Origin: an uncultured Bacilli bacterium
GTDB taxonomy: Bacteria; Bacillota_I; Bacilli_A; RF39; UBA660
DNA length: 64,000 nucleotides
Direction of reading: 5' to 3'
Assembly (NCBI GenBank): GCA_934090735.1
Contig: CAKOJR010000002.1
Location: 22,337 to 86,336 of the forward strand
A model generated the notes under the pieces. That model was given only the letters and a program-made list of their open reading frames with translations. It was not told the DNA's origin and did not search any database. Positions 2,816-58,637 of this stretch are shown here, one piece after another. Made by a program: the position numbers and the translations under genes. The first letter of the stretch is position 1. Each line of letters begins with the position of its first letter.

Positions 2816-4999
2816 TTAATTAACAACGTATGGATCTTCTGACGTGCCAGTTCCACCAGAAATTTTAATAATTGAAACTAAACTTATAGCTGGACGAAGA
2901 GCCGAACTGGCATATCCAACAGTACCACCCGTGTAGAACAAATCACCGGCACTTATACCCCAAACAGAAGCTTGCGTATCATCTCCAAGTTTAATAGGTG
3001 TTAAAGTCCACCAATAAGTAGAACTATAACAATTGCCAGCATTTTCTTGTAAATAAGCAACACAATTATTATAAAAAGCAATAGATCCGGAAAATGCTGC
3101 TTCATCTGCGGTTAATAGTCCTATTTTATAGGTTAAATTACCATTATCGTTTGTAGTATCATCAACAGTAAACTTAGATAACTTACCACCATTATTATCG
3201 CTTGGGCATTTTAATGTCGGCTGTTTAGTAGAATTCAATCTATTATACGCAGCGTAATCTGTTACATTTGTTCCATAACCAAGTCCTCCACTTACTGTAC
3301 TCTTATCATTACACCATATTGTATCTGCTAGTTTACTTTCATATGATGCTAAATTATTTGTATACCATGTTTCTAAATTAGTTAAAATTGTGCTTTTATT
3401 TATATTTGCATGTGTATTTGCGTAATCACTAGAACCGGCTTTTCCATACATAAAACCGATATAGGCATTATCATTATCGTTTGAATTAAATGTTGTATTA
3501 AAAGTACTTCCGGAATACCTTGCGAATGCTGCTGAAAAACTGTTATTTGATGATGCGCATGGATTTATAACTTTATTAATATTATCGTTATGAAGAATAA
3601 GCTTTATTGAACCATCTCCAGTTATTCTTACTATTCGCCAGCATTTATTCGCGAACTGGACATAATTATTTTTTACAGTGCCTCTATAATAATAAGATGT
3701 GCCGTAATCATCTTCTGTACTTGCTAAGAGTGCCTCTGTTGTATTTTTATTTGAAGTTATTGCTTTGTAAACAAAACTACTTGACGTTGCACTTACTATA
3801 TAAGCTACCATTTCTAAATCAGTTGTATCCTTCATAGTTCCTGCCGTGTTTGAACCAGCCTGGAAAACACTAAGAGACCCATATTTTAATGGTAAAAATT
3901 TGCCAACTAAGTCCGAATAAGAATTTATGTATGTATCATTCGTTACAGTGGCACCAGTTAAATTAAACTTTGTACCATTCGCTTCATATCCCGTTCCATA
4001 AGTAAAATAATATGCTTGATATGTAGAAGATACACTTTTAGTTTCGGTATATGTTATATCATCTTTTGTATATGCGCTAACTTCTTTTCCTGGCGTTGTA
4101 ATTGGAGATTTTAATTCGTTGTTTTCTCTTAATGCTGCAAGTAATGTTCCGCTTTCTGCATCATACCACCCATCCGGTGCCGGTGCAAATGGTTCGAATG
4201 TAGCATTACATCTTACATTACCATCTGTTATAGATGAAGTTAAAACCCATTTTGAACCATTCCATTTTATACTTTCGTTGGCATCTATCTTCTTACCATT
4301 TTTAGTGCATTCCACAGATGCTGTGTATTTATTTGTCGTTGGAAAGCTTGTGCTTGCTTCTCCATCAATGAATGCGACTACATACAAGTCATCGGGTGGC
4401 CTTGTTTTAACAGTGCCTACCACTGATATTTTTACCTCGTAATCTTTATTCTCTACTTCTTCACTGGTCCAAATATCTTTATTGTTACCATCTAACCACA
4501 TTCTAAAGTTAAATGTACGAGATTCATCTTTTGTGATGCCATCGCCTTTTTTAAGGATATAGTTTTCTGTTATATTATATTTAGATAAGCTTTGAGGTGT
4601 TGATATAGACTCTAGGGTATTTATTATTGTTCCATTTAAGTCATTATCTCCAAGTAAAGATACTTTTACATATTTTGAGTCTACTTTATTAGTTGTACTT
4701 ATTACTGATGCGATAACATAATACTCGATGTAGTTATCACAGTTATTCTTAATTGTGAATGTGTATGGTGTTTGTTCTAAGGCTTCACCATCACTTATTG
4801 GATAGGTATTAAGTAAATTTATTTCATTTTGGCCATTATATTCTAGATCCATACATGATGCTGCTAAGGTATTTGCATCATTTTGACTTGTATAATTTGT
4901 AAATATAGCGTAACTATCGCCGTTTGTCAGAAGAACAACTGCCAGCATCACACATAAAATTAACATTCTCTTTTTATATCTACGGATATTCTGGTTCAT
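2816..4999 (-). CDS. large secreted protein, paralog P1 (SipW/TasA-type signal; CWRIVRI core; WWTLTP..LRPAISL; GTGTSEDPY tail)
   Basis: 727 aa. N-terminus has a K/R-rich n-region, a hydrophobic h-region and SYAIFTN..NTLAASCMDL, comparable to TasA AAFND..ATFASGTLDL. Long identical blocks are shared with 48160-50076 and 57054-58637. Confidence 0.8.
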   Translation of the reverse strand: MNQNIRRYKKRMLILCVMLAVVLLTNGDSYAIFTNYTSQNDANTLAASCMDLEYNGQNEINLLNTYPISDGEALEQTPYTFTIKNNCDNYIEYYVIASVISTTNKVDSKYVKVSLLGDNDLNGTIINTLESISTPQSLSKYNITENYILKKGDGITKDESRTFNFRMWLDGNNKDIWTSEEVENKDYEVKISVVGTVKTRPPDDLYVVAFIDGEASTSFPTTNKYTASVECTKNGKKIDANESIKWNGSKWVLTSSITDGNVRCNATFEPFAPAPDGWYDAESGTLLAALRENNELKSPITTPGKEVSAYTKDDITYTETKSVSSTYQAYYFTYGTGYEANGTKFNLTGATVTNDTYINSYSDLVGKFLPLKYGSLSVFQAGSNTAGTMKDTTDLEMVAYIVSATSSSFVYKAITSNKNTTEALLASTEDDYGTSYYYRGTVKNNYVQFANKCWRIVRITGDGSIKLILHNDNINKVINPCASSNNSFSAAFARYSGSTFNTTFNSNDNDNAYIGFMYGKAGSSDYANTHANINKSTILTNLETWYTNNLASYESKLADTIWCNDKSTVSGGLGYGTNVTDYAAYNRLNSTKQPTLKCPSDNNGGKLSKFTVDDTTNDNGNLTYKIGLLTADEAAFSGSIAFYNNCVAYLQENAGNCYSSTYWWTLTPIKLGDDTQASVWGISAGDLFYTGGTVGYASSALRPAISLVSIIKISGGTGTSEDPYVVN

Positions 5000-5118
5000 A
5001 TTATACCTCTACTATTCTATGGATATTATATAACAACCCCGTGTCCAGTTAATTTTTGCATTTTTTTGCTCTATTAACGTTTTTTTGGATTTTGCCAAGA
5101 AAAAAAGCCTTTTGGGCT

Positions 5119-5829
5119 TTACTTATGTCTTATGTTATTTAGTCTATTTCTTAAATCGTCTAGTGATTGAGTTTGCTCGATTTTAGGTTCTTCTAGATTT
5201 GGCTCTTCGGCAAGAAGTTCTGATATTGGTGCATCTGTTATAACTTCTGGTTCTGCATCACTATTTATTAGTTTACTTATATCATCTTCACTAGATTCAT
5301 TTATTTTTGGTAGTTCTATTTCTGGAAGTTCTTCTGTAACTGAAACTACTGGTTCTTCTTTGATTGTTTCAACTGCTGGTTCGATAACTGGTTCAATTAC
5401 AGGCTCTACAATATTTTCTGCTTGAACTTCAACTTGTTCAGTTTTAATTTCTGGAGTTTCTTCTACTGCTGGAGTTATTTCTGATTTATATGCAGGCTCT
5501 TCTTTTACTGATTCGATAGCAGGAGGCTCAGTTATTACCGGTTCTACTACACTTTCTTCTTTTTGAATTTCAACTGGTTCTGGTTTAACTTCAGCTTGTG
5601 AAGGCTCAACTACTGGTGTTACCTCTGTTTTGGGAGTACCAGTTTCAACTAGAACTTCATCACTCTTATTAATTTTCTTTTGAGTTCTCTTAATTCTAAT
5701 GCTAGTTATAATAATTAATAAGATTAAGAATGCTGCTATAGTTCCTAGAACTATATAGAAGTATAACATCGATTCCTCATTTGTGTATAGTTTATCAAAT
5801 ACACCATTTAATTTGTCTAAAAATTTCAT
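5119..5829 (-). CDS. membrane-anchored acidic E/P/V-rich low-complexity protein
   Basis: 236 aa with one TM helix (YFYIVLGTIAAFLILLIIITSI), followed by EPVIEPVIEP-type acidic repeats. A hairpin plus T-run overlaps the stop (about 5100-5120). Confidence 0.6.
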   Translation of the reverse strand: MKFLDKLNGVFDKLYTNEESMLYFYIVLGTIAAFLILLIIITSIRIKRTQKKINKSDEVLVETGTPKTEVTPVVEPSQAEVKPEPVEIQKEESVVEPVITEPPAIESVKEEPAYKSEITPAVEETPEIKTEQVEVQAENIVEPVIEPVIEPAVETIKEEPVVSVTEELPEIELPKINESSEDDISKLINSDAEPEVITDAPISELLAEEPNLEEPKIEQTQSLDDLRNRLNNIRHK

Positions 5830-5890
5830 TTTATATCACCTTTTTATTCTATAAATATAATATAACAAAACTCTTTAAAAAATGCAAATC

Positions 5891-6949: not shown

Positions 6950-6955
6950 TTCTAC

Positions 6956-11660: not shown

Positions 11661-13409
11661 TTAAAACCATCTTGATGCGATATCGACGCTTGTTGACTCT
11701 GGCATAGGGTTTGGTAATTCTAGTTTAGATATTAATGGTATTTTAAAGGCTGTTCCAAATGTTATGGCAGTTCCCGGTGTTAAATTTTTTAGTTTTTCAA
11801 TTGTTTCATCACTTACAGAACTGGTGATGTTTTTTATTATTTTAATATCTTCTGGGTGGAACATTCTAAAAGCGATAAAGTTAGAACATTGTGATAATGC
11901 TGTATTTGATAGTTCACTTGGTCTTTGTGTAATAAGGCCTAGAATAACACCATATTTTCTTCCTTCTTTAGTAATGCGGTCAAATATATTATATCCTAAA
12001 ACGTTTATGTCATTATCATTTTGAACATATCTATGGGCTTCTTCTAAGATTATATGAATCGGATAACTTGCTCTTTCTTCTAGCTCTGTTGCAAAGTCAA
12101 AGAACATTTTAGCAAAGATTTTAGTTAAGGTTTTAGCAAAGCGCTCATCGATATAGTTTAAGTTCATATTGATAATCTGGTATCTACCTAGGTGGTTATT
12201 AAATAGATTTTTTATATAGGTTTCTTTAGTTATTCTCGTTTCTCCTACTTCAAAGAATTTTTTATTTTCACTGTTGATTATTTGTTGTAGTCTTACTTTT
12301 AGTTCATTATATTCATCATAGGCTTTATCACTTTTTAGGACGCCTTCACTTATTAGAGCAAACTCTAGAGCATAATATAAATCGTCTAAACTATAAGCAA
12401 TATCTTTTGATACTTCTAGAGAGCTTAAATCTAGTTTTTGATATTTTTCTAGGAAGTCAACTACAGACTGAACAGCGTTCATTTTACCTTGATTATCGAT
12501 GTTTAAGCACTGACGGATTGTTCTTGAATAGCCTGGTTGGTAAATCTCAGTTTCAGCATTTAAATCTTCTGTGTTATATCTCGAAAGAATTGCTAGGACT
12601 TGGTCTCTTATTTGGGTACTGTTACGCCCACTTGATAAGATATCTAGTAAGCATGAAGCAATAATATCATTTTTATAAGAAATCATTTTTTCATCCTGAC
12701 TTTTGAAGATATAAACCAGTTTGATTGCTTTTTCTAAGATAGGAAGTGATGAAGAGTTTGTTACGTGTAATAGTAGTGCTAGGTCATCTACTTCTAGGAA
12801 GTATGCGGGAATGTTTATTATTTCACCATCGCTTAAGTCTAATTTTGTTGTTAAATTTTTATAACCCATTCCATCAATATCATTTAAGTGTGATAGAGCA
12901 TTTTTATATTCTCCGTAGACATCAAATAAAACGATATGGGAGTTTACTGGCATGGATTCTTTGTTACTGTAAAGATTTTGAAGAATTCTTGCTACACCGC
13001 ATGATTTACCAGAACCAGTATTTCCTATAATTGCAAAGTGATTAGCAAAAAAAGCGTTTAAGTCAGCACAGATATTAAATCCTTCATAAGTATTTGATTT
13101 ACCAATATATACGCATCTTTTACCTTCCCCGCATCCTAGAAATAGTTCAGCTTCATTTTTGTATACTAATCTGGGGATTGATGAAAAATGTGGCTTTTTT
13201 AGAACACCTGAAGTAAATACACCATTTTTAATTTCACCAACTAGAAAGATTTTAATTTCATTTTCATCTATACCGACTATTTCACCTACTACGCCTCTAT
13301 TTTTTTCGGGAAATACTACGTGATAGTTTAAGTAGTTAACTTCTAATTTTTCACTTATATTTTCAACTATAACATAATTAGTTTCGATTGATTTGATTTT
13401 TCCAAACAT
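11661..13409 (-). CDS. HerA/DUF87-like P-loop ATPase (FtsK-HerA superfamily)
   Basis: N-terminal barrel-like region, Walker A GNTGSGKS, Walker B IILEEAHRY, and ITQRPSELS..SQCSNFIAFRM. Start moved to the ATG at 13409 (GGTG SD 8 nt upstream); the track start is GTG. Confidence 0.75.
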   Translation of the reverse strand: MFGKIKSIETNYVIVENISEKLEVNYLNYHVVFPEKNRGVVGEIVGIDENEIKIFLVGEIKNGVFTSGVLKKPHFSSIPRLVYKNEAELFLGCGEGKRCVYIGKSNTYEGFNICADLNAFFANHFAIIGNTGSGKSCGVARILQNLYSNKESMPVNSHIVLFDVYGEYKNALSHLNDIDGMGYKNLTTKLDLSDGEIINIPAYFLEVDDLALLLHVTNSSSLPILEKAIKLVYIFKSQDEKMISYKNDIIASCLLDILSSGRNSTQIRDQVLAILSRYNTEDLNAETEIYQPGYSRTIRQCLNIDNQGKMNAVQSVVDFLEKYQKLDLSSLEVSKDIAYSLDDLYYALEFALISEGVLKSDKAYDEYNELKVRLQQIINSENKKFFEVGETRITKETYIKNLFNNHLGRYQIINMNLNYIDERFAKTLTKIFAKMFFDFATELEERASYPIHIILEEAHRYVQNDNDINVLGYNIFDRITKEGRKYGVILGLITQRPSELSNTALSQCSNFIAFRMFHPEDIKIIKNITSSVSDETIEKLKNLTPGTAITFGTAFKIPLISKLELPNPMPESTSVDIASRWF

Positions 13410-13488
13410 TATTATCACACCTATTCTATAGATAATTTTACTAGAGTTATTTAAAAAAGTCCACTAAAAAAAGAGGCAAAGCTCTTTA

Positions 13489-13590
13489 TTAGATGAAAAC
13501 TGCTCCAAGGATTATTGCTAAAAGAATAAATAAGACTAAGACAATAAATGCTTCGCTTGCAAATCCTTGGTTTTCATTATTTTTGCACAT
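13489..13590 (-). CDS. tiny transmembrane protein, YjcZ-like
   Basis: 33 aa, MCKNNENQGFASEAFIVLVLFILLAIILGAVFI, with an AAGGAGG SD. Not in the ORF track because of its size. Confidence 0.6.
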   Translation of the reverse strand: MCKNNENQGFASEAFIVLVLFILLAIILGAVFI

Positions 13591-13605
13591 AGTAACCTCC
13601 TTTAC

Positions 13606-13710
13606 TTAAATAACTGCGGCACCTACAATGATTACTAATAGAATAAATAATACTAAAATGAAAGCTGCTCCGCTTATTCCGTAATTGTTATTTCCACAAC
13701 AACCGTTCAT
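13606..13710 (-). CDS. tiny transmembrane protein, YjcZ-like
   Basis: 34 aa, MNGCCGNNNYGISGAAFILVLFILLVIIVGAAVI, with an AAGGAGGG SD. It shares the FILVLFILL core with 13489-13590 and 38876-39073. Confidence 0.6.
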   Translation of the reverse strand: MNGCCGNNNYGISGAAFILVLFILLVIIVGAAVI

Positions 13711-13767
13711 AGTCTCCCTCCTTTTCATTACTCACTTTATTGTACGCGAAAAGTCTTAATTGTGTTC

Positions 13768-13796
13768 TTGTATTTTGGTTTAAGGACGTGTATAAT
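13768..13796 (+). promoter_or_regulatory. sigma-A type promoter for prsA
   Basis: TTGTAT-17 nt-TATAAT, with a TGn extended -10 (gTGTATAAT). Confidence 0.55.
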
Positions 13797-13814
13797 AGAT
13801 AACTAGGAGGATTT

Positions 13815-14834
13815 ATGAAGAAGAAAATTATAATGGCTTTAGTAATACTTGGATTTGCTACTGGATGTGGTAAAGTTCCTGTAATGAAAGATGGCGACCA
13901 AGCAGTTGTTACTTTTGAAAAGGAAGGCTTAAATATTAGTGCTACAAATCTTTATGAGAAGATCAAAGTTAATTATGCTTTATCTAATTTAATTGATATG
14001 GTTGATACTAAGATATTTAGTGAAAAGTATGCTGATAAGACTAGTGAAGCTGAAAAGAGCGCAGAAAAACAGCTAGAACAAATTAAAACTTACTATGTTG
14101 ATGATAATGGTAAATATGATGAAAGTGCCCTTCTAAAAGCATTAAACTCTTATTATGGAATTAATTCTATAAAAGATTTTAAAGAAACGCTTAAACTAAG
14201 TTTCTATCGTGATTTAGCAGTTGATGATTATGCTAAAGAAAGCATTACTGATAAAGAGATTGAAAAGTATTATAAAGAAAAGACCGTTGGAGATATTTCT
14301 TGTAGTCATATTTTAATTTCACCAAAAACTACTGATAGTATGACAGATGATGAAAAGAAAAAGGCTGAAGAAGAAGCATTAAATAAAGCTAAAGAAGTTA
14401 TTAAGAAGCTTAATGATGGAGCTGATTTTGCTGAGCTTGCTAAAGAATACTCTGATGATAGTTCTAATGCTAGCAAAGGCGGAGATTTAGGATACTTCAA
14501 TACCGGTGATATGGTTGAGGAGTTTGAAACTGCTGCGTATAAGTTAAAACTTAATGAGTATACTAAAGATCCTGTTAAGACTAAGTTTGGTTATCATATC
14601 ATTTTAAAAACTGGCGAAAAAGAAAAACCAAGTTTAGATGATTCTAAAGAGTCTATTATTGAAAAGTTAGCTAGTGAAAAAATTGATAGTGATAAAACAT
14701 TATCTATTAATGCTTTAGTTGAACTTCGTAAGAGTTATGGCATGACTATTGAAGATTCTGAACTTAAGAGTCAATATGAAAAGTATATTAGTAATCAATT
14801 ACTAAATGCTAATACTACTACAAGTAATAATTAA
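13815..14834 (+). CDS. prsA: foldase lipoprotein PrsA (parvulin-type peptidyl-prolyl isomerase)
   Basis: Lipobox LGFATGC, plus a parvulin domain with SHILI..GGDLGYF..FGYHII. Confidence 0.85.
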   Translation: MKKKIIMALVILGFATGCGKVPVMKDGDQAVVTFEKEGLNISATNLYEKIKVNYALSNLIDMVDTKIFSEKYADKTSEAEKSAEKQLEQIKTYYVDDNGKYDESALLKALNSYYGINSIKDFKETLKLSFYRDLAVDDYAKESITDKEIEKYYKEKTVGDISCSHILISPKTTDSMTDDEKKKAEEEALNKAKEVIKKLNDGADFAELAKEYSDDSSNASKGGDLGYFNTGDMVEEFETAAYKLKLNEYTKDPVKTKFGYHIILKTGEKEKPSLDDSKESIIEKLASEKIDSDKTLSINALVELRKSYGMTIEDSELKSQYEKYISNQLLNANTTTSNN

Positions 14835-22840: not shown

Positions 22841-23030
22841 AAAAAAACAGTGAACATCCTTACAAAGGACGAATCACTGTTAATCCGCGGTACCACCTTA
22901 ATTACTTAATAGTCTCTCTTTAAGGATAACGGTCTATAGCCGGCTTAGTCTACTTAATTCTTTAAGCACTCATGGTGTCTAAAAGGTTAGCTCTATATTA
23001 ACTTCCACCATATGTTAACTCTCTATAATA
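22841..23030 (-). promoter_or_regulatory. T-box leader (tRNA-sensing riboswitch) of aspS
   Basis: On the - strand: AGAGAG box, then the T-box core GGTGGTACCGCGG (22897-22885), then the terminator ACAGTGATTCGTCC..GGATGTTCACTGT plus T7 (22880-22841). The candidate specifier is GAC followed by A at 22979-22976. Confidence 0.8.
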
Positions 23031-23112
23031 TTACTAATCTTCCTTTTCCAATCAACGTTTATACATATATTTATAATACTTTTTTTATTTAAAATCAAGT
23101 GTTTTTAGTTAT

Positions 23113-24195
23113 TTAGTCAATTTTGTATGGGTCTTCTGAGGTGCCAGTTCCAGAAACTGATACGGATGGTGCTAAACTAATTGATGGTCTAATTACGTAG
23201 CTACCACCTACTCCACCATTTCCTAAAAGGCCTGAACTAATAGCCCAAATGAAAGCTGAACTGCCATTATAGTTAGTTGGTTTCATAGTCGTCTTCTTTA
23301 CTTGCAATTAGAGCTTCTGTACTGTTTTTACTCGAGGTAATTCTTTTTGTTGTGTAGCTTGATGATGTGGCACTAACTACATAATATATTGTTGTTAAAT
23401 TGGTTGTTGTTTTCTTTGAGCCAGCTGTACTTGAGCTATTGTTAGCTGGAGATGAACTAACTAAATACTTACCAACTAAACCAGAATATGAGTTTGCATA
23501 GGTGGCTGTTGTTACTCCAGTTCCTAGTAGATTAAAATTAATATCATTTGCTTCCTTTCCTGGTGTTGATAGTGGTGTTTTTACTTCGTTGTTTGCAAGA
23601 ATAACATCTTTAAATATAGGAGCAATATCTGCACTTGCTTCTGCAACAACTTTTCCTTTATATTTTTTACTAGTTCCTTGTTCTTTGGTCATGCTTTCGT
23701 CAAACCATAATCTTAAATCATAAGTTTTTGATGATTTAGCTGAGAGATTATCTGTTAAAAGTGCGTAGGTATTTCCATTATTTTGGGATTCCATTATTTT
23801 ACCAGAAGATATGATTATTGCTGAAGTTGGAGTTACTCCATTTTTTATAATTACACCTTTAATTAAAGATGCAGGTATTTCACTTGTGTTTAGCGTTTCA
23901 ACGCCTATGTTAAGTGTTAAATACTGATTACAGTTATTAGTTATTTTAAATGTATAATGATTTCTTTGCAGTCCTTCTTTATCCGGAACTAGATAATTAT
24001 TTGCTAGATTTAAGGCATTAGTAACGTCCCCCGAAGGTTATACTAAAGCAATCGGCTGCACTTAAATTATTGCTACTACTTTGTCTTGTAAAATTTTGTA
24101 ATAGGGCAAATTATGTGCCAATTAGAACAACGATTATAAGCATTAAGTATAATGAAGCAAGTTGTTTTTTATATTGCTTAAGCTGTTGCTGCATT
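23113..24195 (-). pseudogene. decayed copy of the secreted-protein paralog family
   Basis: The ATG at 24195 is out of frame with the signal-peptide region (..KQYKKQLASLYLMLIIVVLIGT). There is an in-frame TAA at 24113-24111 and a frameshift at a C5/G5 run (24028-24032). The frame ends ..EDDYETN* at 23273. The tail (..IRPSISL..GTGTSEDPYKID) is in another frame, and the roughly 250-300-codon CWRIVRI core is missing. Confidence 0.85.
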
Positions 24196-24288
24196 GCAAT
24201 CCCCTATCTTTCTATATAAAGAATTGCAAAATAACGGCACTATTATGTCAAGTTAATAAGCTATTTTATTTTATCTATTTAAAGTTAA

Positions 24289-44284: not shown

Positions 44285-44659
44285 CTATCTATTATTATTG
44301 TTGTTATTGTTATTGTTATTATTATTTGATGATGAGCCCCCATGGTAACCGCCACCTCCAGAGCCTCTTACAACAGGATTATAATGAGGTATAACTGAAA
44401 AATAAGTATTAGTTAATTTAACCCCATCAATTGTGCTGTCGGTGCATATAGCAGGCATTATTTCTGGAGTTATTCCATCTTGATAATTTAATTTAAGTGT
44501 TAAGCCATTTTTGTTTCCAATAACAATTCCATTTTCATTGTTAGCAAGATAATTATATATTTTATTTAGATTTTCTTCTGATAGTTGATAATATTTCGTT
44601 AAATCGATGCATCTTTTATATCTTATTAACTCTTCATAGGTTTCTGGTTCTTTATTCAT
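44285..44659 (-). CDS. 124-aa soluble protein with Gly-rich/poly-Asn C-terminal tail (candidate rSAM substrate or partner)
   Basis: Ends ..NPVVRGSGGGGYHGGSSSNNNNNNNNNNNNR. Its ATG overlaps the rSAM TGA (ATGA at 44659-44656). Confidence 0.6.
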   Translation of the reverse strand: MNKEPETYEELIRYKRCIDLTKYYQLSEENLNKIYNYLANNENGIVIGNKNGLTLKLNYQDGITPEIMPAICTDSTIDGVKLTNTYFSVIPHYNPVVRGSGGGGYHGGSSSNNNNNNNNNNNNR

Positions 44660-46400: not shown

Positions 46401-48047
46401 TCAGTATCTAGGGTATACTTTTGTAATATTTGTTGGGCTTTCTTTAAAAGCACGCTCGTTTACATATGTTATTGATGGGATTGATATATTGTATAAACTA
46501 TAGCATCTTCTAAAAGCAGATGAGCCTATTTCTTGTAAATTACTTCTTTCACTTATAATAACTTCAGAAAGGCTTGAAGCTTCATAAAAAGCATGAGCTC
46601 CTATTCTTTTTACTTTGTCTGGAATTGTTATACTTTTTAGTGAACTGCAATATTCAAAGGTGTCCCCTCTTATTTCTGTTAAGTTTTCTGACAATTTAAT
46701 GGTTTCTAATGAAGTGGCTCCGTAAAAAGATTCACCGCCTAAGAATGTTAAAGTATCTGGTAACTCAATTTCTTTTATTTTGCTAGCATTATAAAATGCT
46801 CCACCGCCAAGATATTCTAACTCTTTTGGTATATTTACAGAAACTAAATTTTTGCAGTTTTTAAATGCTTGCCCTCTTATTTCTTTGATGGTATCTGGGA
46901 GTTTAATACTTTCTAGAAATATCATGTTTGAAAAAGTATTACCTCTTAAGCTGATAACTTTTTTATTGTTATGAGTTTCTGGAATTGTTGCAGTTTTGAA
47001 GTTTGTTAAACCATATGCGTAGAATCTAACACCATAACCATCTTCAGTTTTTTCGTAAAGAATTTTTGGCGTAGAAAATATTATTAGTGGGAAGATAATT
47101 GCTATTAGGATGCTAATTACAAAAGATAGCCTGCTATTATCAGTTGTTAAATTACTTTTTTCTAGCATTATTATATTTGATATTTTTTCTTCTGGTCTAG
47201 CTTTTACTTGCTTTATAAGATATTTCATGAAGTTATATTTTCTTGAAAGTTTAAAGAAGATAAAGAGAAGGATAATTCCAATAATATATGTGCTTAAAGG
47301 AAAGTGAAAAAAGATTATTGTAATGTAGAAACAAAGTAATACAGAAAAAATAATATTTAATACTTTTTTCCTTTTTAAAACTTCATTTGGTATTAATTTA
47401 TTTGGCTCTTTGACTCCTAAATTGGCCATTTGTCTGCGTATAAATTCTTCAACGACCTCTTCTTCTGATAAAAGATACATTGGGTCAAAGTCAGTTATCT
47501 TTTTTATTGTTTGAGATAAATCTTTAGCAACAGCATTTGATAATGTCTTTTGGGCATCAAATGGTTCCCCGCAGTTTGTACAAAAATGATCAGTTATAAG
47601 TAGCGTTGTACCGCATTTGCTACACTTTAATTCTAAATTTTGTGGTTTTGTTTGAGCAGCTAGTTCGGCAAATTTTATAGCTTCTCTCTTTTTAAGTTTT
47701 CCAGATATGAAATAACAAATTGGAACAATAATAAAAGCTCCTATAAATACACTTATAAAATCTACTATAGCGATGCTTGTCGTAACAAAAAAGTCAAAAA
47801 ATAGTAATATTGCAGCTCTTATTGCAAACAAGATCCAGAAAAGTTTCTTACTATTTACCGGCGAAAATGCTTTAGCTATTGGTAGTAAGACAAAAATTGA
47901 CATATGTATAGAAACAAATGCTTCAATAAATAATGCAGATTTTATATCAAAATCGCCATTACTAGGCATGGTATAGGCATAAACTAGACTTGGATAAAGT
48001 AATAAACTATATATCAACATTATTTTAACAATTTTTTTAAACTTCAT
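46401..48047 (-). CDS. polytopic membrane protein with internal zinc ribbon and C-terminal BspA-type leucine-rich repeats
   Basis: Several TM helices, CSKCG..CTNCG, and repeats of the type LESIKLPDTIKEIRGQAFKNCKNLVSVNIP (LRR_5-like). Confidence 0.65.
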   Translation of the reverse strand: MKFKKIVKIMLIYSLLLYPSLVYAYTMPSNGDFDIKSALFIEAFVSIHMSIFVLLPIAKAFSPVNSKKLFWILFAIRAAILLFFDFFVTTSIAIVDFISVFIGAFIIVPICYFISGKLKKREAIKFAELAAQTKPQNLELKCSKCGTTLLITDHFCTNCGEPFDAQKTLSNAVAKDLSQTIKKITDFDPMYLLSEEEVVEEFIRRQMANLGVKEPNKLIPNEVLKRKKVLNIIFSVLLCFYITIIFFHFPLSTYIIGIILLFIFFKLSRKYNFMKYLIKQVKARPEEKISNIIMLEKSNLTTDNSRLSFVISILIAIIFPLIIFSTPKILYEKTEDGYGVRFYAYGLTNFKTATIPETHNNKKVISLRGNTFSNMIFLESIKLPDTIKEIRGQAFKNCKNLVSVNIPKELEYLGGGAFYNASKIKEIELPDTLTFLGGESFYGATSLETIKLSENLTEIRGDTFEYCSSLKSITIPDKVKRIGAHAFYEASSLSEVIISERSNLQEIGSSAFRRCYSLYNISIPSITYVNERAFKESPTNITKVYPRY

Positions 48048-48136: not shown

Positions 48137-48161
48137 AAAAAAGATAGGTGTTAAACCTATC
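48137..48161 (-). terminator. rho-independent terminator after surface paralog P2
   Basis: GATAGGT-ttaac-ACCTATC followed by T6 on the - strand. Confidence 0.7.
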
Positions 48162-50076
48162 AATTAACAATGTAAGGGTCTTCTGAAGTGCCTGTGCCAC
48201 CTGAAATTGTTGTTGAGGATATAAGACTTATCGAAGGTCGAAGTCCAGTACCATCTTCAATGTCGCCTCGCACATTAAAATTATTAAATTCACCACTAGC
48301 CTTGACACCATAAATGAGAGAAATATAACCATCGTTATTTTGAGGTGACAAAGTCCACCAAGATGACCCACTTGCATTTTCGAGTAAGTAATAATTAGGA
48401 TTAAATCCTCCATTAAATCCACCTGCAAAAGAAATTTCATCAGCTGTTAATAATCCTATTTTATAAGTTAAATTACCATTACCATTTGTCGTATCACTTA
48501 CAGTAAATTTAGATAACTTGCCACCATTGTTGTCATTAGGACATTTTAGTGTTGGCTGTTTAGTTGAATCTATTCTATTATATGCACCATAATAGGTAAT
48601 ATTTTTGGCATAACCAAGCCCACTTGAAATACTTTTATCATTACACCATATTGTATCTGCTAATTTACTTTCATATTCAGTTAAATTATTTTTATACCAT
48701 GTTTCTAAATTTGTTAGTATTGTACTTTTATTTGTATTTGCATGCGTGCTTGCATAATCACTCGATCCGACCGTTCCATACATAAATCCAATGCTTGCAT
48801 TATCATAATAGTTATCATTAAATGCGGTTGTGTATGAACTTCCAGAATATCTTGCAAAGGTTGCTGTATTACTATTATTAGCAGATGAACATGGGTTAGA
48901 AACTTTATTTATATTATCATTATGTAAAATTAATTTTATTGAACCATCACCAGTTATTCTAACTATTCTCCAGCATTTACCCGCAAACTGCACATAATTA
49001 TTTTTTACAGCACCCCTAAAATAATACGACGTTCCATAATCATCTTCTGTGCTTGCTAAAATTGCTTCAGTTGTATTTTTATTTGATGATATTATTTTAT
49101 AAGTAAAACTATCTTTAGTTGCACTGACTATATAATATACCCTGCCTAAATTAGTTGCAGGTTGCATTGTACCTGCGGTACTTGATCCAGCATAATATAA
49201 AGAACTATCCGTCAAATATTTACCAACTAAACTAGAGTACGAATTTGCATATGTATCACTAGTTACTGCTGTTCCAGTTAAATTAAATTTTGTTCCATTT
49301 GCTGTCCATCCCGTTCCATACGTAATATAATGATTTTGAGCACTCGTTGATACACTTACTGTTTTACTCTCAGCGTCATCTAAAGTATAGGCACTCACTT
49401 CTTTACCAGGTACTGTGATTGCTTGTTTAACTTCATTGTTTTCACTCAATGTTGCAATAAATGTTCCACTATTTGCTTCATACCATCCTGATGGAGCTTG
49501 GGTAGCAAGGTTGCCTTTTTCATCTGTAATTTCAACATGAGCATTGAATGTCGCTCCTTGATTACTGTTTTGGTCTATGTCTTTTAATGGATAATATATT
49601 TTTAACTGATATGTATGAACTGCACTATCTGCTTTTAGAAAGTTACCTTTACCTAGTTCTAGTGAAGTACCTGTTAAATTAGTTTTTGATATAGTTGGCA
49701 CTACTTTCCCATTATCACTTGTATTAATACTTACTAATTCATATTGTAATGGATCAGAAGTAATAAATGTATTAGAGTCTACTACTAAAGTAAGTTTATA
49801 ATACATCTCAGCATCTGTATTATTATTACCAGTTACAGTTATTATTTTAGTAGCCCATACTTCATCTCTTGGGTATACTCCACTTAAACTTATTGTATTA
49901 CCACCATTATAGTTTATTTTCATAGTACCACCTTCAGCGGTTACTGTTGTTTCATCTTCCGAAGTTATACCTGAGGTAAAGTAAGCATAAGAAGCCCCTA
50001 CTGCTAGTACTATACATAATAGCATTACATAAACCATAACTTTTTTCTGTTTCTTTTGGATATCTTCTAGGTTCAT
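48160..50076 (-). CDS. large secreted protein, paralog P2
   Basis: 638 aa from the ATG at 50076 (MNLEDIQKKQKK..LAVGASYAYFTS). It shares the CWRIVRITGDGSIKLILHNDNINK block and the GTGTSEDPYIVN tail. The track's extra 16 codons run into the promoter. Confidence 0.8.
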   Translation of the reverse strand: MNLEDIQKKQKKVMVYVMLLCIVLAVGASYAYFTSGITSEDETTVTAEGGTMKINYNGGNTISLSGVYPRDEVWATKIITVTGNNNTDAEMYYKLTLVVDSNTFITSDPLQYELVSINTSDNGKVVPTISKTNLTGTSLELGKGNFLKADSAVHTYQLKIYYPLKDIDQNSNQGATFNAHVEITDEKGNLATQAPSGWYEANSGTFIATLSENNEVKQAITVPGKEVSAYTLDDAESKTVSVSTSAQNHYITYGTGWTANGTKFNLTGTAVTSDTYANSYSSLVGKYLTDSSLYYAGSSTAGTMQPATNLGRVYYIVSATKDSFTYKIISSNKNTTEAILASTEDDYGTSYYFRGAVKNNYVQFAGKCWRIVRITGDGSIKLILHNDNINKVSNPCSSANNSNTATFARYSGSSYTTAFNDNYYDNASIGFMYGTVGSSDYASTHANTNKSTILTNLETWYKNNLTEYESKLADTIWCNDKSISSGLGYAKNITYYGAYNRIDSTKQPTLKCPNDNNGGKLSKFTVSDTTNGNGNLTYKIGLLTADEISFAGGFNGGFNPNYYLLENASGSSWWTLSPQNNDGYISLIYGVKASGEFNNFNVRGDIEDGTGLRPSISLISSTTISGGTGTSEDPYIVN

Positions 50077-50101
50077 ATTATATCTACTTCTTTCTATTAT
50101 T

Positions 50102-50129
50102 AGTATATAATACACCCCCCCCATGTCAA
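50102..50129 (-). promoter_or_regulatory. promoter of P2 with G8 tract in the spacer
   Basis: - strand TTGACA(50129-50124)-16 nt-TATACT(50107-50102). The spacer contains G8 (C8 on the + strand, 50115-50122). Confidence 0.55.
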
Positions 50130-54383: not shown

Positions 54384-54393
54384 TAAAAAAATA

Positions 54394-54421
54394 ACAGACA
54401 CATTTAGTGCCTGTTTTTTTA
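54394..54421. terminator. bidirectional terminator (tRNA operon / convergent - strand operon)
   Basis: ACAGACAC-attta-GTGCCTGT, flanked by an A-run on the left and a T-run on the right. Confidence 0.6.
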
Positions 54422-55349: not shown

Positions 55350-56071
55350 TATGATAACCTCTCTTCAATAAATATATCACCAAAATTATATTCCTGACTG
55401 ATTACTGCTTCTTTAGATTTTACTAGATTAAGAATTCCTAAAAAAGTTACAATTACATAAGGCTTGTCTACTTTATCAAATAGTTCTAGGAAGTTAACTT
55501 TTCCCCTATTATGAAGATAATTTTTAATACTAATGCATCTATCTTCTACGCTTAATTCTCTTTTAGTAACTGCTTTATTTACTGGTTCGTCTAGTTTTTT
55601 TCTATTTAAGTAGTCTTCAAATGCCTTAAGTAAATCATCTAGTGTTATGTCATTACTAAGTTTAATATTTTTATCTGCGTATTCATTTAGATTAGAAGGC
55701 ATTTTAGTTAATACTTCTTTTCTTTTATCTTCAAGTTCACTTAATTTATCGGCAGCTGCTTTTAACTTTTCATATTCAATTAGTCTATTTCTTAAATCGT
55801 CTTCCGTGTTAATTTCGTATTCTGCATCGTCTTCTTCGTCATTTTTATTAAGTAGTAGTTTACTTTTTAAATGGATAAGTTCTGATGCCATAACTAAATA
55901 CTCACTAGCTCCGTCGATAGTGAGTTCTTTGTGCTTGTTAATAAAGTTTAAATATTCTTTAGTTATCTTTTCTATGTTTATGTCATATATATCCATTTTG
56001 TGGGCTTTGATTAAATGCCATAATAAATCTAATGGCCCATCAAAATCGTTAATTTTTATATTCACTTGCAA
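55349..56071 (-). CDS. scpA: segregation and condensation protein A
   Basis: FDGPLDLLWHLIKAHKMDIYDI. The track start is TTG; a GTG two codons downstream (56065-56063) overlaps the upstream TGA (GTGA) and may be the real start. Confidence 0.88.
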   Translation of the reverse strand: MQVNIKINDFDGPLDLLWHLIKAHKMDIYDINIEKITKEYLNFINKHKELTIDGASEYLVMASELIHLKSKLLLNKNDEEDDAEYEINTEDDLRNRLIEYEKLKAAADKLSELEDKRKEVLTKMPSNLNEYADKNIKLSNDITLDDLLKAFEDYLNRKKLDEPVNKAVTKRELSVEDRCISIKNYLHNRGKVNFLELFDKVDKPYVIVTFLGILNLVKSKEAVISQEYNFGDIFIEERLS

Positions 56072-56967
56072 TCAAATCCTTTAGTTAACATATCATAGCT
56101 AACCTCTTTAAGTGGTGCATTCATATAGAAATAGTTATAGTCGTAGTCATCACTTAAAGTTTCCCTTATATTCTCTGAAAGTGTAATTTCCGCATTGAAA
56201 ACAAAGCCATCATTAGTTTCCTCTGTTGTGCTTATAATGCCATTATTGTTTAGTCTAGTTGATAATTCTTGATATGAATTAAATGAATTCATGTAGGCAG
56301 TAATATCTGAAGTATCGTTATTGGTAAATGTGGTTTTTACTGTTTTTAGGGTATTATTTTCAAAAGAATATATATATGTCTGATTATCAAGTTCGCAAGT
56401 TAAAGTGTTTGCTTCGCTTACTTCTGGATAATCATCGGTTGTAATATTTACAATTTTACCATAATAATTTTCACCAGTATTAATTGTTAATTTATATAAT
56501 GTAGTGCTTACGTTTGTTACTTCTTTATTGATATTACCTGTTAGTTTTACTCTTGTTAGTAAGTCTTTGGTCCCATAAATTTCTAAAAATAGTTTGTGCT
56601 CGTCTAAATTGAAATCTATATTTGATGACATATCAAAACTTATTTTATTTCCTTCTAAAGTAAAATTGGTAAGTTTGATATTTTGATAAGAAACCGCACT
56701 AGTTTTATTTAAAATTTGTCTATCTTCAGCAGGCACGTCTGGCTGTGGCGTTGGCTCTTCATCTTTAGTAAAGCTATTTAATATTTGTCTTACTAATACT
56801 GAAAAGGAATCATTGTTGTTGTTAATATAATCTTTAATATATGGAAGTCCAAAACAGGTTCCTAAAAGTAATATAAAGCAGAATAAAACAAAAAATGGTT
56901 TACTTGATTTTTCTTTTTTTAATACTCCTAATGTAATAGGTTCATTGTTTTCATTATCACTTTTCAT
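56062..56967 (-). CDS. membrane-anchored hypothetical protein
   Basis: 301 aa with one N-terminal TM (FFVLFCFILLLGTCFGL). No family recognised. Confidence 0.55.
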   Translation of the reverse strand: MKSDNENNEPITLGVLKKEKSSKPFFVLFCFILLLGTCFGLPYIKDYINNNNDSFSVLVRQILNSFTKDEEPTPQPDVPAEDRQILNKTSAVSYQNIKLTNFTLEGNKISFDMSSNIDFNLDEHKLFLEIYGTKDLLTRVKLTGNINKEVTNVSTTLYKLTINTGENYYGKIVNITTDDYPEVSEANTLTCELDNQTYIYSFENNTLKTVKTTFTNNDTSDITAYMNSFNSYQELSTRLNNNGIISTTEETNDGFVFNAEITLSENIRETLSDDYDYNYFYMNAPLKEVSYDMLTKGFDCK

Positions 56968-57012
56968 AACAAATCCCTTTCATTCTAAAAGTATTATATC
57001 AAAAACCAAAAT

Positions 57013-57039
57013 AAAAAAAAAGTAGTTAAGTTAAACTAC
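57013..57039 (-). terminator. rho-independent terminator after surface paralog P3
   Basis: GTAGTT-taactt-AACTAC followed by T9 on the - strand. Confidence 0.65.
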
Positions 57040-57053
57040 GTTGTATTTGAGTG

Positions 57054-58637
57054 TTAAACTACTTTATAAGGATTTTCTGGGGTACCGGCTCCAATAACAT
57101 TAACACTTGAAACTAAGCTTATTGATGGTCTGATGCCATATAAATTATCAACGTCATCGTAAACAAAGATTGTTTCATCATATGACTGATAAACAATCCA
57201 AACTATTGCTTTATAATTGTAATAAGCATAAGGCGACAAACTCCACCATTCGGTGTTTCCTGTATTTTCTTTTAAATATGTTAATTGATTATTTATATTG
57301 AATGCATAGCCTGCATAAGCTATTTCATCTGCTGATAATAGACCTATTTTACTTTGTACTTTATTTAGGGCTCCATTGCATTTTAAACTTGGGCCGGTTT
57401 CGTTATCATCATTCTGTCTTAATCTTTTTGTTGCTTCATAATAAGTCTCATTATCATTGTAACCAAGACCATTCATTTTCCAACCGTCGATACGGTAATC
57501 AGTATCAGTTACGTTTGTCTTATCTGTACACCATATTGTATCTGAGATATTTTCTTCGTATGAAGCTAAATTATTCGTATACCATGTTTCTAAATTAGTA
57601 AGTATTGTGCTTTTGGTTGTGTTAGCATGCGTGCTTGTGTAGTCATTTACCTCTGTTTCGCCATACATCAAACCAACATAGGCGTTGTCATCTACATTTG
57701 TATTAAAGGCACTTCTATATGTGCTTCCCGAATATCTTGCAAAGGCAGCGTCATTACTATTGTTAGTTGATGAGCATGGATTTATGCTCTGATTTATATT
57801 ATCATTGTGTAAAATTAGCTTTGTTGTCCCATCACCTGCTATTCTTACTATGCGCCAACATTTATTTGCAAACTCTAAATAGTTATTTTTTACGTTACCT
57901 CTAAAATAGTAAGAGATTCCGTAATCATCTTCTGCATCCGCCAGTAGTGCTTCACTAGCCAATGATATATCTGTTCCTGGAGTTGTTAGTGGAGTATTTA
58001 ATTTGTTATTATTGAGAATTGCTTTATTTAATAATATGGGAGATTGAATGGCACTGGTTATTACTACAATCTTGCCTGCCCATATTTTGTCTAGGCCTTG
58101 TTCTGTTGTGACCGCACTATCCATCCATATTCTTAAATCATAACTCTTTTCTTCATTTGAATTTAAGCCAGTATCTACTATTATATATCCTTTACTGTTA
58201 TTATCTAAATCTGTTAATGTTTGGCTTCCAAGTATTACTGAAGAATTTTTAGTAGTATCCTTTGGAGATATATTTACTTTAATATAGTTATCTTTTAGAT
58301 AAGCTGAGTCTGTGCTTGTTCTGTATGTGCTTTTAATTGTGATATATGCTTTTACGTAACTATCACAGTTATTCTTGATTATAAAAGTAAATGGTGTTTG
58401 TTTTAAACCATCTTTATCTTTTATTGGAAATGCATCTGTTAGTTCTATTTTAGAAGTATCTTCGGTTAGAGTTGTGCTAAAGCATGTTCTTGAAGCTAGT
58501 GTATTAGCTTCGCTTTGACTTAAATATAATCTAAACCAAGCAAAAGATACACCGATTATACAGATTACTGTAATTAGCAGACTATAATATATTTTTAGTT
58601 TTTTCTTTTTATTATCAATATTAACTTCTTGGTTCAT
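57054..58637 (-). CDS. large secreted protein, paralog P3 (short form)
   Basis: 527 aa with ..IIGVSFAWF..EANTLASRTCFSTTL, the CWRIVRIAGDGTTKLILHNDNINQ block, WWSLSP..YGIRPSISL, and the tail GAGTPENPYKVV. Confidence 0.8.
   Translation of the reverse strand: MNQEVNIDNKKKKLKIYYSLLITVICIIGVSFAWFRLYLSQSEANTLASRTCFSTTLTEDTSKIELTDAFPIKDKDGLKQTPFTFIIKNNCDSYVKAYITIKSTYRTSTDSAYLKDNYIKVNISPKDTTKNSSVILGSQTLTDLDNNSKGYIIVDTGLNSNEEKSYDLRIWMDSAVTTEQGLDKIWAGKIVVITSAIQSPILLNKAILNNNKLNTPLTTPGTDISLASEALLADAEDDYGISYYFRGNVKNNYLEFANKCWRIVRIAGDGTTKLILHNDNINQSINPCSSTNNSNDAAFARYSGSTYRSAFNTNVDDNAYVGLMYGETEVNDYTSTHANTTKSTILTNLETWYTNNLASYEENISDTIWCTDKTNVTDTDYRIDGWKMNGLGYNDNETYYEATKRLRQNDDNETGPSLKCNGALNKVQSKIGLLSADEIAYAGYAFNINNQLTYLKENTGNTEWWSLSPYAYYNYKAIVWIVYQSYDETIFVYDDVDNLYGIRPSISLVSSVNVIGAGTPENPYKVV

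What the first reader, a model, noticed from the sequence alone, without database searches (positions are those of the whole stretch)
2816..58637. Dispersed, mosaic family of large secreted proteins (3 intact + 1 decayed copy) with TasA/SipW-type signals
P1 (2816-4999), P2 (48160-50076), P3 (57054-58637) and the pseudogene (23113-24195) share several parts:
- An N-terminal K-rich plus hydrophobic segment ending S(Y/F)A(Y/I/W)F, followed by ..NTLA(A/S)..C.., which resembles the SipW-cognate signal and N-terminus of TasA/camelysin (TIGR04088, from memory).
- A beta-rich region with FT(F/I)(I/K)NNC(D/N).
- A nearly invariant core, EDDYG(T/I)SYY(Y/F)RG.VKNNY..FA.KCWRIVRI.GDG..KLILHNDNIN...NPC.S.NNS..A.FARYSGS, through ..THAN..KSTILTNLETWY.NNL..YE...(A/S)DTIWC.DK.
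- YKIGLL(T/S)ADE, WW(T/S)L(T/S)P, (L/I)RP(A/S)ISL, and a G(T/A)GT(S/P)E(D/N)PY tail.

The W..VRI / ..W(Y/L).N / LL(S/T)..E / WW..SP / RPA..L order resembles DUF6273-type domains, again from memory. Between the conserved blocks the copies differ by whole segments. P1 and P2 share a ~150-aa insert (..GWY(D/E)A(E/N)SGT..VSAYT..NGTKFNLTG..) that P3 lacks. P1 has an extra module before it.

Each copy sits alone between housekeeping genes with its own promoter and terminator. No sipW-type signal peptidase is in the window. The pattern looks like a variable surface or secreted antigen repertoire that could exchange cassettes by recombination.
Basis: partly seen in the sequence, partly recalled or inferred. 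Interest (0 to 1): 0.7.

Follow-up and report, generated by a model that had tools for sequence, protein, structure and literature searches.

The report
Variable lectin-like surface protein gene family
Three intact genes and one broken copy encode exported proteins with a lectin-like binding head, all behind a shared promoter that carries a slippery run of G; close relatives hypermutate the same head with a retroelement (DGR), but this genome shows no sign of doing so.

Summary
P1, P2, P3 and a decayed fourth copy are paralogues with the stated motif blocks and module differences.

The family is huge: more than 5,400 clusters at 50% identity. None of P1-P3 reaches any Pfam or NCBIfam threshold. 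The last ~100 residues of the core link to DUF6273, a C-type-lectin-like domain, through intermediate homologues and through a confident AlphaFold model.

The TasA/SipW reading is not confirmed. TIGR04088 does not score, TasA is not among the fold matches, and hhalign gives only 51% probability.

Two features were not in the finding:
- All four copies share an ~80-bp promoter. In P2 and P3, and in every relative carrying this promoter that I examined, a G7-G10 run sits between -35 and -10. These are the only G/C runs of 6 or more in the 64 kb. The run's length differs (G8/G9/G10) between samples whose flanks are otherwise identical.
- In a well-sampled sister species, the WWSLSP...RPxISL segment is the variable region of a DGR (diversity-generating retroelement). 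Template repeat, reverse transcriptase and adenine-only mismatches were all found. The window copies lack this signature.

The copies show no recent gene conversion with each other. One strain has deleted P3.

The parts
2816..4999 (-). P1, 727 aa: signal/anchor helix, N-terminal beta-sandwich, ~65-aa Cys module, ~150-aa insert, ~300-aa core
   Evidence: exact protein on 3 contigs; same context on another contig
2879..3013 (-). P1 segment WWTLTP..RPAISL, equivalent to the DGR variable region of sister-species orthologues; here without a DGR signature
   Evidence: C-ending codons 4/45; K and Q at positions that are hypervariable in orthologues
5025..5052 (-). P1 promoter-like site TTAACT-16-TATAAT; homologous to the P2/P3 promoter but with only G4
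48160..50076 (-). P2, 638 aa: divergent N-domain, shared insert, core
48223..48360 (-). P2 segment equivalent to the DGR variable region; no DGR signature
48143..48161 (-). terminator-like hairpin at the P2 stop codon
50102..50129 (-). P2 promoter TTGACA-16-TATACT
50115..50122 (-). G8 homopolymer inside the P2 promoter spacer
57054..58637 (-). P3, 527 aa: signal/anchor helix, beta-sandwich (residues ~50-196), core (residues 197-527)
57114..57248 (-). P3 segment equivalent to the DGR variable region; identical in a 97%-identical strain
58663..58691 (-). P3 promoter TTGACA-17-TATACT
58678..58684 (-). G7 homopolymer (followed by CGTG) inside the P3 promoter spacer
   Evidence: orthologues have G8 and G9 here
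23113..24194 (-). decayed fourth copy: early stop, frame changes, core deleted, tail retained
24200..24256 (-). promoter remnant of the decayed copy (TTAACTTGACAT kept, G-run lost)

Best explanation
P1-P3 are paralogous genes for Sec-exported, cell-surface or secreted ligand-binding proteins of an uncultured, spore-forming gut member of the class Bacilli.

Each protein has four parts. First comes a basic N-terminus plus one hydrophobic helix ending in G-x-S-(Y/F)-A-x-F. This is either cleaved after S-(Y/F)-A by a type I signal peptidase or kept as a membrane anchor. Next is a ~150-residue beta-sandwich 'stalk'. Optional inserted modules follow. Last is a ~330-residue disulfide-containing head whose final ~100 residues are DUF6273-like (C-type-lectin-like).

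The loops between WW(S/T)L(S/T)P and RP(A/S)ISL form the likely binding surface. In a sister species exactly this segment is rewritten by a diversity-generating retroelement (DGR). In the window genome the segment is not DGR-written. Variation there comes from having several diverged paralogues, from decay or deletion of copies, and probably from expression switching.

All copies inherited one promoter. In P2 and P3 its -35/-10 spacer contains a G8 or G7 run. Slippage in the run would change the spacer length (15/16/17 nt) and therefore promoter strength.

Shown: paralogy, family membership, the fold model, the shared promoter, tract position and between-sample length polymorphism, the DGR in relatives and its absence here, and loss of P3 in one strain.

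Inferred: export, ligand binding, and any effect of tract length on transcription.
For: Paralogy and decay.

Family size and architectures: 6,433 hits; 5,462 clusters at 50% identity, with proteins up to 4,905 aa. Some members carry type IV pilin N-termini in place of the SYAxF type.

Fold of the core: pLDDT 96, pTM 0.94. No PDB neighbour. Best BFVD matches are DUF6273 proteins, probability 0.99-1.0. DUF6273 passes the Pfam threshold in homologues P0127 (49 bits) and P0139 (29 bits). DUF6273 has been described as C-type-lectin-like and as a DGR target (PMC10743442).

Four invariant Cys in the core.

Shared promoter.

G-runs: the only G/C runs of 6 or more in 64 kb are the two in the promoter spacers. 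Observed 2 runs of 7 or more against 0.15 in shuffles. The same tract is the only G/C run of 7 or more in each of eleven 9-22 kb relative loci checked.

Tract length with otherwise identical upstream sequence:
- G9 in 8 and G8 in 3 samples at one locus.
- G10 in 3 and G9 in 3 at another, where the G9 set also differs by two substitutions in the 110 nt, one in the -10 hexamer.
- P3-type promoters with 15-, 16- and 17-nt spacers.

DGR in the sister species:
- 19 hypervariable columns restricted 99.4-99.9% to NNY-encodable residues.
- C-ending codons 18-23 of 43 in the segment against ~11% gene-wide.
- Template repeat at L041:12424-12548, with mismatches to the variable region only at template adenines inside the repeat block.
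- RVT_1 reverse transcriptase downstream.
- Identical template repeats with different variable regions in three samples.

Absence of the DGR in the window.

Loss of P3 in one strain.
Against: No experiment supports export, binding or switching.

P1-P3 themselves fail every Pfam and NCBIfam threshold. The fold matches to DUF6273 have modest TM-scores (0.35-0.58) and E-values around 1e-3.

No wall-anchoring motif is present, so 'surface' against 'released' is open.

The G-tract was G9 in 10 of 10 samples at one sister locus. P1 has only G4. The length differences come from consensus assemblies, where homopolymers are error-prone. A mutL gene is present. A fixed structural or regulatory role of the G-run is therefore not excluded.
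Confidence: 0.6

Rival explanations
1. One reading: these are TasA/camelysin-like proteins with SipW-cognate signal peptides. A SipW-type peptidase encoded elsewhere cleaves them, and they possibly assemble into fibres through the conserved N-terminal strand, with the lectin-like head as cargo.
For: The motif G-x-S-Y-A-x-F followed by ..N-T-L-A-(A/S)..C..L lies in the same register as TasA GGGTWAAFND..ATFASGTLDL. hhalign of 52 family N-termini against TasA gives probability 51%, pairwise E 1.5e-4, over 70 columns. P2 has a weak TIGR04090 hit (E 0.028, 14 bits). The stretch after the helix is low-confidence in the model, as a free donor strand would be. Weak fold matches to donor-strand pilins CfaB and Caf1.
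Against: TIGR04088 scores genuine TasA at 40.6 bits but not P1-P3, and only 2 of 52 family N-termini at E<=0.01. No Peptidase_M73/TasA Pfam hit. TasA is absent from the top 50 PDB fold matches of the full model. No S26 peptidase was seen in the window or next to any of the relative loci inspected. S-(Y/F)-A also fits the ordinary -3/-1 rule of SPase I, and AlphaFold continues the helix through the motif.
Confidence: 0.15
2. The G-run is a fixed promoter element, for example a spacer-structure or factor-binding feature, and not a switch. The G8/G9/G10 differences are neutral polymorphism or homopolymer assembly error.
For: G9 in 10 of 10 samples at one locus. At the P1-like locus tract length co-varies with a -10 substitution (TATACT with G10, TATAAT with G9), which looks like lineage history rather than rapid switching. 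mutL is present.
Against: A G7-G10 run in a 30% G+C genome is costly to keep and is exactly the substrate of slipped-strand mispairing. At the RRF-X-HrcA locus the surrounding 100 nt are identical while the tract is G8 in 3 and G9 in 8 samples, with no link to the assembler used. The tract is conserved in position across paralogues and species while its length varies from 7 to 10.
Confidence: 0.3
3. P1-P3 are active targets of a DGR located outside the window.
For: Orthologues in the sister species are DGR targets. DGRs can act on remote targets (established knowledge).
Against: No NNC/NNT codon bias in the equivalent segments. K, Q and E occur at positions that would be templated by adenines, and there are indels and scaffold changes relative to the sister variable region. 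The GC-rich 3' end of the sister variable region (GGTTTGCGGCCTGCC) is degenerate in P1. No template-repeat-like copy and no reverse-transcriptase-like ORF in 64 kb, nor in ~10 kb beyond the high-coordinate end. Two P3 strains differing at 56 nt are identical in the segment.
Confidence: 0.05
4. The conserved core is an enzyme, for example a secreted hydrolase, rather than a binding module.
For: The core is large (~330 aa) with several invariant polar residues: D237, D238, N252, R265, E438 and H in THAN. The N-terminal two thirds of the core has no annotated relative.
Against: No match to any catalytic family in Pfam, NCBIfam or PDB. The only relatives recognised are DUF6273 binding-type domains. 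A DGR diversifies surface loops of the same domain in relatives, which is the hallmark of ligand-binding proteins.
Confidence: 0.1

Closest known systems
DGR variable proteins with a C-type-lectin fold, including DUF6273-type targets of gut phages (e.g. 'tentaclins', PMC10743442) and the classic Mtd/TvpA type (established knowledge)
   Same: The C-terminal domain has the conserved scaffold W-W-x-L-x-P ... R-P-x-I-S-L around a loop array. Sister-species orthologues have a true variable region/template repeat pair, a reverse transcriptase and adenine-only mutagenesis. The best fold matches are DUF6273 proteins.
   Different: The window copies have no template repeat, no reverse transcriptase and no NNC signature. 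The core is about twice the size of the Pfam DUF6273 model (172 positions) and misses its threshold. The proteins are chromosomal and multi-copy, and carry an unannotated N-terminal beta-sandwich and signal.
DGR-diversified adhesins of Bacteroides type V pili (bioRxiv 10.1101/2024.11.15.621889; abstract only)
   Same: Gut bacterium, chromosomal surface adhesin-type targets. In this family some members carry pilin-type (type IV, N_methyl) N-termini.
   Different: Different phylum and different pilus system. P1-P3 have no pilin signature.
TasA / SipW-dependent signal peptide proteins (TIGR04088, TIGR04090)
   Same: Basic N-terminus, hydrophobic helix, aromatic-A-aromatic-F motif and the following strand in a similar register.
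   Different: The curated HMM thresholds are not reached. No TasA-like fold match. No sipW was seen. The proteins are 2-3 times longer and have a lectin-like head.
Phase-variable promoters with a homopolymeric tract between -35 and -10 (Neisseria meningitidis porA poly-G and opc poly-C; Mycoplasma hyorhinis vlp poly-A; established knowledge, not checked in papers here)
   Same: The homopolymer lies inside the spacer of a surface-protein promoter. Several paralogues share the design. Tract length is polymorphic between otherwise identical sequences.
   Different: No expression data. Switching within a population is not shown. The organism is an uncultured spore-forming gut Bacilli member. I found no paper describing such a tract together with a DGR.

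Membership tests
Pfam DUF6273 (PF19789) | HMM score at or above the gathering cut-off (23.5 bits) | tested here: not met
   P1-P3: no hit at E<=1. 67%-identical homologues: no hit at E<=10, although some carry a precomputed PF19789 tag.
Pfam DUF6273 (PF19789) | Homology through intermediates and a shared fold | tested here: met
   Family members P0127 (49.1 bits) and P0139 (29.4 bits) pass the threshold over the equivalent last ~100 residues. The top BFVD fold matches of the core model are DUF6273 proteins, probability 0.99-1.0, TM 0.35-0.58.
SipW-dependent signal peptide (TIGR04088) | HMM score at or above 19 bits | tested here: not met
   TasA control 40.6 bits. P1-P3 no hit at E<=10. 2 of 52 family N-termini at E<=0.01.
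SipW-dependent signal peptide (TIGR04088) | A SipW-type signal peptidase in the genome | not testable with these tools
   None in the window by motif search or in the 40 ORFs scanned with Pfam, and none in ~10 kb beyond the high-coordinate end. The rest of the genome was not available.
TasA / camelysin (Peptidase_M73) fold | N-terminal domain homologous to the TasA jelly-roll | tested here: inconclusive
   No Pfam hit. TasA is not in the top 50 Foldseek PDB matches of the full-length model. hhalign of the first ~80 residues against TasA: probability 51%.
DGR target (variable protein) | Variable region/template repeat pair differing only at template adenines | tested here: not met
   Window: no second copy of any 3' segment other than the paralogues. 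Sister species: met (L041 variable region 11960-12083, template repeat 12424-12548).
DGR target (variable protein) | Reverse transcriptase with accessory gene nearby | tested here: not met
   No reverse-transcriptase-like ORF in the window or beyond its high-coordinate end. Sister species: RVT_1 ORF with IGNMTSQ and YMDD 1.3 kb downstream of the target.
DGR target (variable protein) | NNC/NNT codon signature and hypervariable columns restricted to NNY-encodable residues | tested here: not met
   Window P1-P3: 4-7 of 45 codons end in C, and K/Q/E are present. P3 against a 97%-identical strain: no difference in the segment. Sister species: met.
Phase-variable (contingency) promoter | Long homopolymer placed between -35 and -10 | tested here: met
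   P2 G8 with a 16-nt spacer; P3 G7 with a 17-nt spacer. These are the only G/C runs of 6 or more in 64 kb. P1 has only G4 and the pseudogene has none.
Phase-variable (contingency) promoter | Tract-length polymorphism with otherwise identical flanks | tested here: met
   Sister species: G9 x8 and G8 x3; G10 x3 and G9 x3; but G9 x10 at a third locus. P3-type promoters from other samples: G8 and G9 against G7C here. Based on assemblies, not reads.
Phase-variable (contingency) promoter | Expression changes with tract length; heterogeneity within a population | not testable with these tools
   No reads, no transcript data.
Type IV pilin-like proteins (N_methyl, PF07963) | G-F-T-L-x-E prepilin cleavage/methylation motif | tested here: not met
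   Absent from P1-P3. Present in other family members: P0128, P0139, P0180, P0255.

The most novel reading that the evidence does not exclude
A large family of lectin-like surface proteins in spore-forming gut Bacilli may be controlled at two levels. A slippery poly-G tract in a promoter that travels with every gene copy would switch or tune each paralogue. A DGR would rewrite the binding loops. The window genome would then be a natural DGR-free state of this system, in which only the promoter switch, paralogue choice and gene loss remain. In addition, the conserved N-terminal strand may be a TasA-like donor strand that mounts the heads on a fibre.
Probability: 0.3. Interest if true: 0.65.

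Novelty: new variant of a known kind. Interest (0 to 1): 0.5.

Why it matters
The family is very abundant in human gut metagenomes, with thousands of sequence clusters, yet it is essentially unannotated: no Pfam or NCBIfam hit, and no source-given name among the 240 top hits listed.

This work places it next to DGR variable proteins. It gives exact coordinates for the likely binding loops. It also identifies a promoter feature that could make expression of each paralogue stochastic.

That makes several questions directly testable. What do these heads bind: host glycans, mucus, phage or other bacteria? Do gut Firmicutes use homopolymer phase variation together with DGR hypermutation? What happens to such a family in a lineage without the DGR?

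For the window itself the result is more modest. It holds a diverged, partly decaying paralogue set with no sign of active cassette exchange.

Tried and rejected
- Direct Pfam, NCBIfam and PHROGs scans of P1-P3: nothing useful. The only hit was phrog_9958, of unknown function, at E 5e-5 on the P1 tail.
- PDB sequence searches with P1 and with a 36-sequence profile: nothing.
- Foldseek of the full-length model against PDB: only weak generic beta-sandwich hits (Pgp3, EphA4, CfaB, Caf1), which I did not interpret.
- Foldseek of the core against PDB: no significant match; a few C-type lectin domains at E 5-8.
- Gene conversion between the window copies: rejected. Identity is ~76% and the longest exact match is 28 nt.
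- Synteny with the GTDB representative genomes: none apart from the family gene itself.
- Regular-expression search for SPase I/SipW boxes in the window and loci: none. This is low-sensitivity.
- Template-repeat search in viral contigs with a degenerate pattern of the P3-type variable region: 0 hits. The template for the P3-type variable regions of the sister species therefore remains unlocated. Only the P1-type cassette was found.
- A conserved partner gene: the neighbouring 236-aa and 301-aa proteins are not conserved next to relatives.
- A wall-less (Mollicutes-like) host: rejected. MurT, FtsZ, SpoIIGA and sigma-factor genes (probably sigE/sigG) flank the window, and VanY and LysM occur in relatives.
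- The metagenome-wide promoter pattern scan returned mostly unrelated promoters; only 2 of 13 hits were family members.

Full report
**1. Observation**

A five-way alignment reproduces every motif block. It also shows the module differences: a ~150-aa insert shared by P1 and P2, and a further ~65-aa Cys-containing module in P1.

The fourth copy has a stop after codon 27 and frame changes. It has lost the whole core between EDDY and the C-terminal tail. The paralogues are 44-58% identical in protein and ~76% identical in DNA over the core.

The window is 30% G+C. It comes from a human-gut metagenome scaffold. The nearest species-level genomes are labelled 'uncultured Bacilli bacterium'. DNA just outside the window encodes SpoIIGA, two sigma factors (probably sigE/sigG), FtsA/FtsZ and MurT. 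The host is therefore a walled spore-former.

**2. What the proteins are**

No Pfam or NCBIfam model reaches E<=1 on P1-P3. No PDB sequence matches either.

The family is nevertheless very large. There are 6,433 hits among the scored candidates and 5,462 clusters at 50% identity. Architectures run up to 4,905 aa with 22 matched stretches.

A model of P3 has three parts: an N-terminal helix (residues 10-33), a low-confidence linker (29-46) and a beta-sandwich (about 50-196). Mean pLDDT is 85.

The C-terminal 331 residues, modelled with 66 sequences, reach pLDDT 96 and pTM 0.94. This core has no significant PDB neighbour. Its best matches among predicted viral structures are 'DUF6273 domain-containing proteins' (E 6e-4 to 2e-3, probability 0.99-1.0, TM 0.35-0.58).

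Two family members pass the Pfam DUF6273 threshold over the equivalent last ~100 residues. The literature describes DUF6273 as C-type-lectin-like and as a target domain of diversity-generating retroelements, DGRs (PMC10743442). It is also the N-terminal domain of a gut IgA protease, for which no structure of that domain was solved (PMC12402451).

It fails as a direct membership test.

**3. The N-terminus**

Most family members have the same design: basic residues, a hydrophobic helix, then G-x-S-(Y/F)-A-x-(F/L). About 10 of 150 representatives instead carry type IV prepilin motifs. Others have a plain helix.

TIGR04088 recognises authentic TasA at 40.6 bits, but none of P1-P3. It reaches only 2 of 52 family N-termini at E<=0.01. 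TasA is not among the fold matches. A profile-sequence hhalign against TasA gives 51% probability in the expected register.

I therefore treat 'TasA/SipW-type' as an unconfirmed lead. S-(Y/F)-A also fits an ordinary SPase I site, and the helix may equally be an uncleaved anchor.

**4. Recombination**

Between the window copies there is no tract of near-identity. The longest exact match is 28 nt. Recent cassette exchange within this genome is therefore not supported.

Mosaicism does exist across genomes:
- Two loci of a related MAG combine a P3-type N-domain (80% identical) with the insert that P1 and P2 carry and P3 lacks.
- At one fixed locus of a sister species, two alleles have 95-100% identical flanks and a 92-98% identical N-domain, but a core only 60-93% identical.
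- Segment identities are incongruent between alleles. Part of that incongruence is explained by the DGR described in section 6.

**5. A shared promoter with a G-run (new)**

The ~80 bp upstream of all four copies align. The consensus is ATTAACTTGACA-(T/C)-Gn-...-TAT(A/T)ATA(C/A)T.
- P2 has TTGACA, a 16-nt spacer containing G8, then TATACT.
- P3 has a 17-nt spacer with G7.
- P1 keeps only G4 and appears to use the overlapping TTAACT hexamer.
- The pseudogene has lost the run.

These two tracts are the only G or C runs of 6 or more in the 64 kb. Shuffles give 0.15 runs of 7 or more.

The same tract (G8-G10) precedes every relative that carries this promoter. It is the only G/C run of 7 or more in each of eleven 9-22 kb relative loci checked.

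Its length varies while the flanks stay identical:
- At the RRF-X-HrcA locus, G9 in 8 samples and G8 in 3.
- At the P1-type locus, G10 in 3 and G9 in 3, although the G9 set also differs by two substitutions, one in the -10 hexamer.
- At a third locus, G9 in all 10 samples.

This is the anatomy of a slipped-strand phase-variable promoter. The effect on expression is inferred, not shown.

**6. A DGR in the sister species, not here (new)**

Among 119 P3-type homologues, the 43 residues between WWSLSP and RPSISL contain 19 columns with 8-13 residue types each. In those columns 99.4% of residues are encodable by NNY codons. At variable columns elsewhere in the protein, 17% are K/E/Q/M/W. In the DNA, 18-23 of the 43 codons end in C, against ~11% gene-wide.

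Among 119 P1-type orthologues (76-77% identical to P1), most of the protein is 97-100% conserved (some core stretches 83-93%). The exception is the same 19 columns.

On a 550-kb contig the P1-type gene is followed by a complete cassette:
- a 125-nt template repeat whose mismatches to the variable region all lie at template adenines;
- two small ORFs;
- an RVT_1 reverse transcriptase with IGNMTSQ and YMDD.

Three samples share an identical template repeat but have different variable regions.

The window copies lack all of this:
- no C-ending codon bias, and K/Q/E at the equivalent positions;
- no template-like repeat;
- no reverse-transcriptase-like ORF;
- P3 and a 97%-identical strain differ at 56 nucleotides, none of them in the segment.

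P1 is also flanked directly by gyrB, so there is no room for a cassette.

**7. Gain and loss**

A strain whose flanking genes are 98% identical lacks P3. It keeps only the last codons (..GEGTSENPYKVV*) between the MiaB-like gene and the 301-aa gene. Together with the pseudogene, this shows the family is being pruned in this lineage.

**8. Verdict**

The finding is real. It belongs to a known kind, the lectin-like DUF6273/DGR-target surface proteins, in an unannotated and architecturally distinct form.

In this window the copies are diverged, DGR-free paralogues. The most interesting feature is the conserved and polymorphic poly-G promoter tract. I found no paper that describes such a tract together with a DGR.

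The TasA/SipW and cassette-exchange parts of the interpretation are not supported by the tests I could run.

Noticed in passing
L041:10001-14594 (also L042, L045, L046): Complete DGR cassette in a sister species: P1-type target, variable region 11960-12083, template repeat 12424-12548, two small ORFs (one with a weak MutS_I hit), and an RVT_1 reverse transcriptase at 13485-14594.
   Followed up: yes
L049:10341-10555, compared with window 56967-58826: A strain with 98% identical flanks has deleted P3 and its promoter, leaving only the last ~13 codons of the gene.
   Followed up: yes
window 46401-48047 (-) and 44656-46392 (-): Directly downstream of P2 lies a BspA-type leucine-rich-repeat protein with a zinc ribbon, followed by a radical SAM/SPASM protein. 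P2 is therefore not flanked only by housekeeping genes.
   Followed up: partly
window 22862-23064 (-): T-box leader (97 bits) upstream of aspS, immediately downstream of the decayed copy.
   Followed up: no
window 24028-24032: One of only three other 5-nt G/C runs in the window lies inside the pseudogene, near the change of reading frame between its N-terminus and N-domain. It may be the site of a frameshift.
   Followed up: no
L041-L046, 50 nt upstream of the P1-type gene: Tract length co-varies with the -10 hexamer: G10 goes with TATACT and G9 with TATAAT.
   Followed up: partly
family members P0128, P0139, P0180, P0255 and others: The same lectin-like core is fused to type IV prepilin (N_methyl) N-termini in other lineages. 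One member (P0185) also carries an ALK/LTK-type glycine-rich domain.
   Followed up: partly
window 50077-50124: The longest P2 ORF starts at 50124, but the promoter (50102-50129) lies inside that extension.
   Followed up: yes
window 5119-5829 (-) and 56062-56967 (-): Two unannotated single-helix membrane proteins lie next to P1 (a P/E/V-rich 236-aa protein) and P3 (301 aa). They are not conserved next to relatives.
   Followed up: partly
L048:1-9938 (beyond the high-coordinate end of the window): SpoIIGA, two sigma-factor genes (probably sigE/sigG), FtsA/FtsZ, MurT and LspA. The host is a walled spore-former, not a Mollicutes-like organism.
   Followed up: partly
sister-species P3-type loci (L019-L040): The P3-type variable regions have a scaffold different from the P1-type template repeat, so a second template or a second DGR must exist. 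It was not located.
   Followed up: partly
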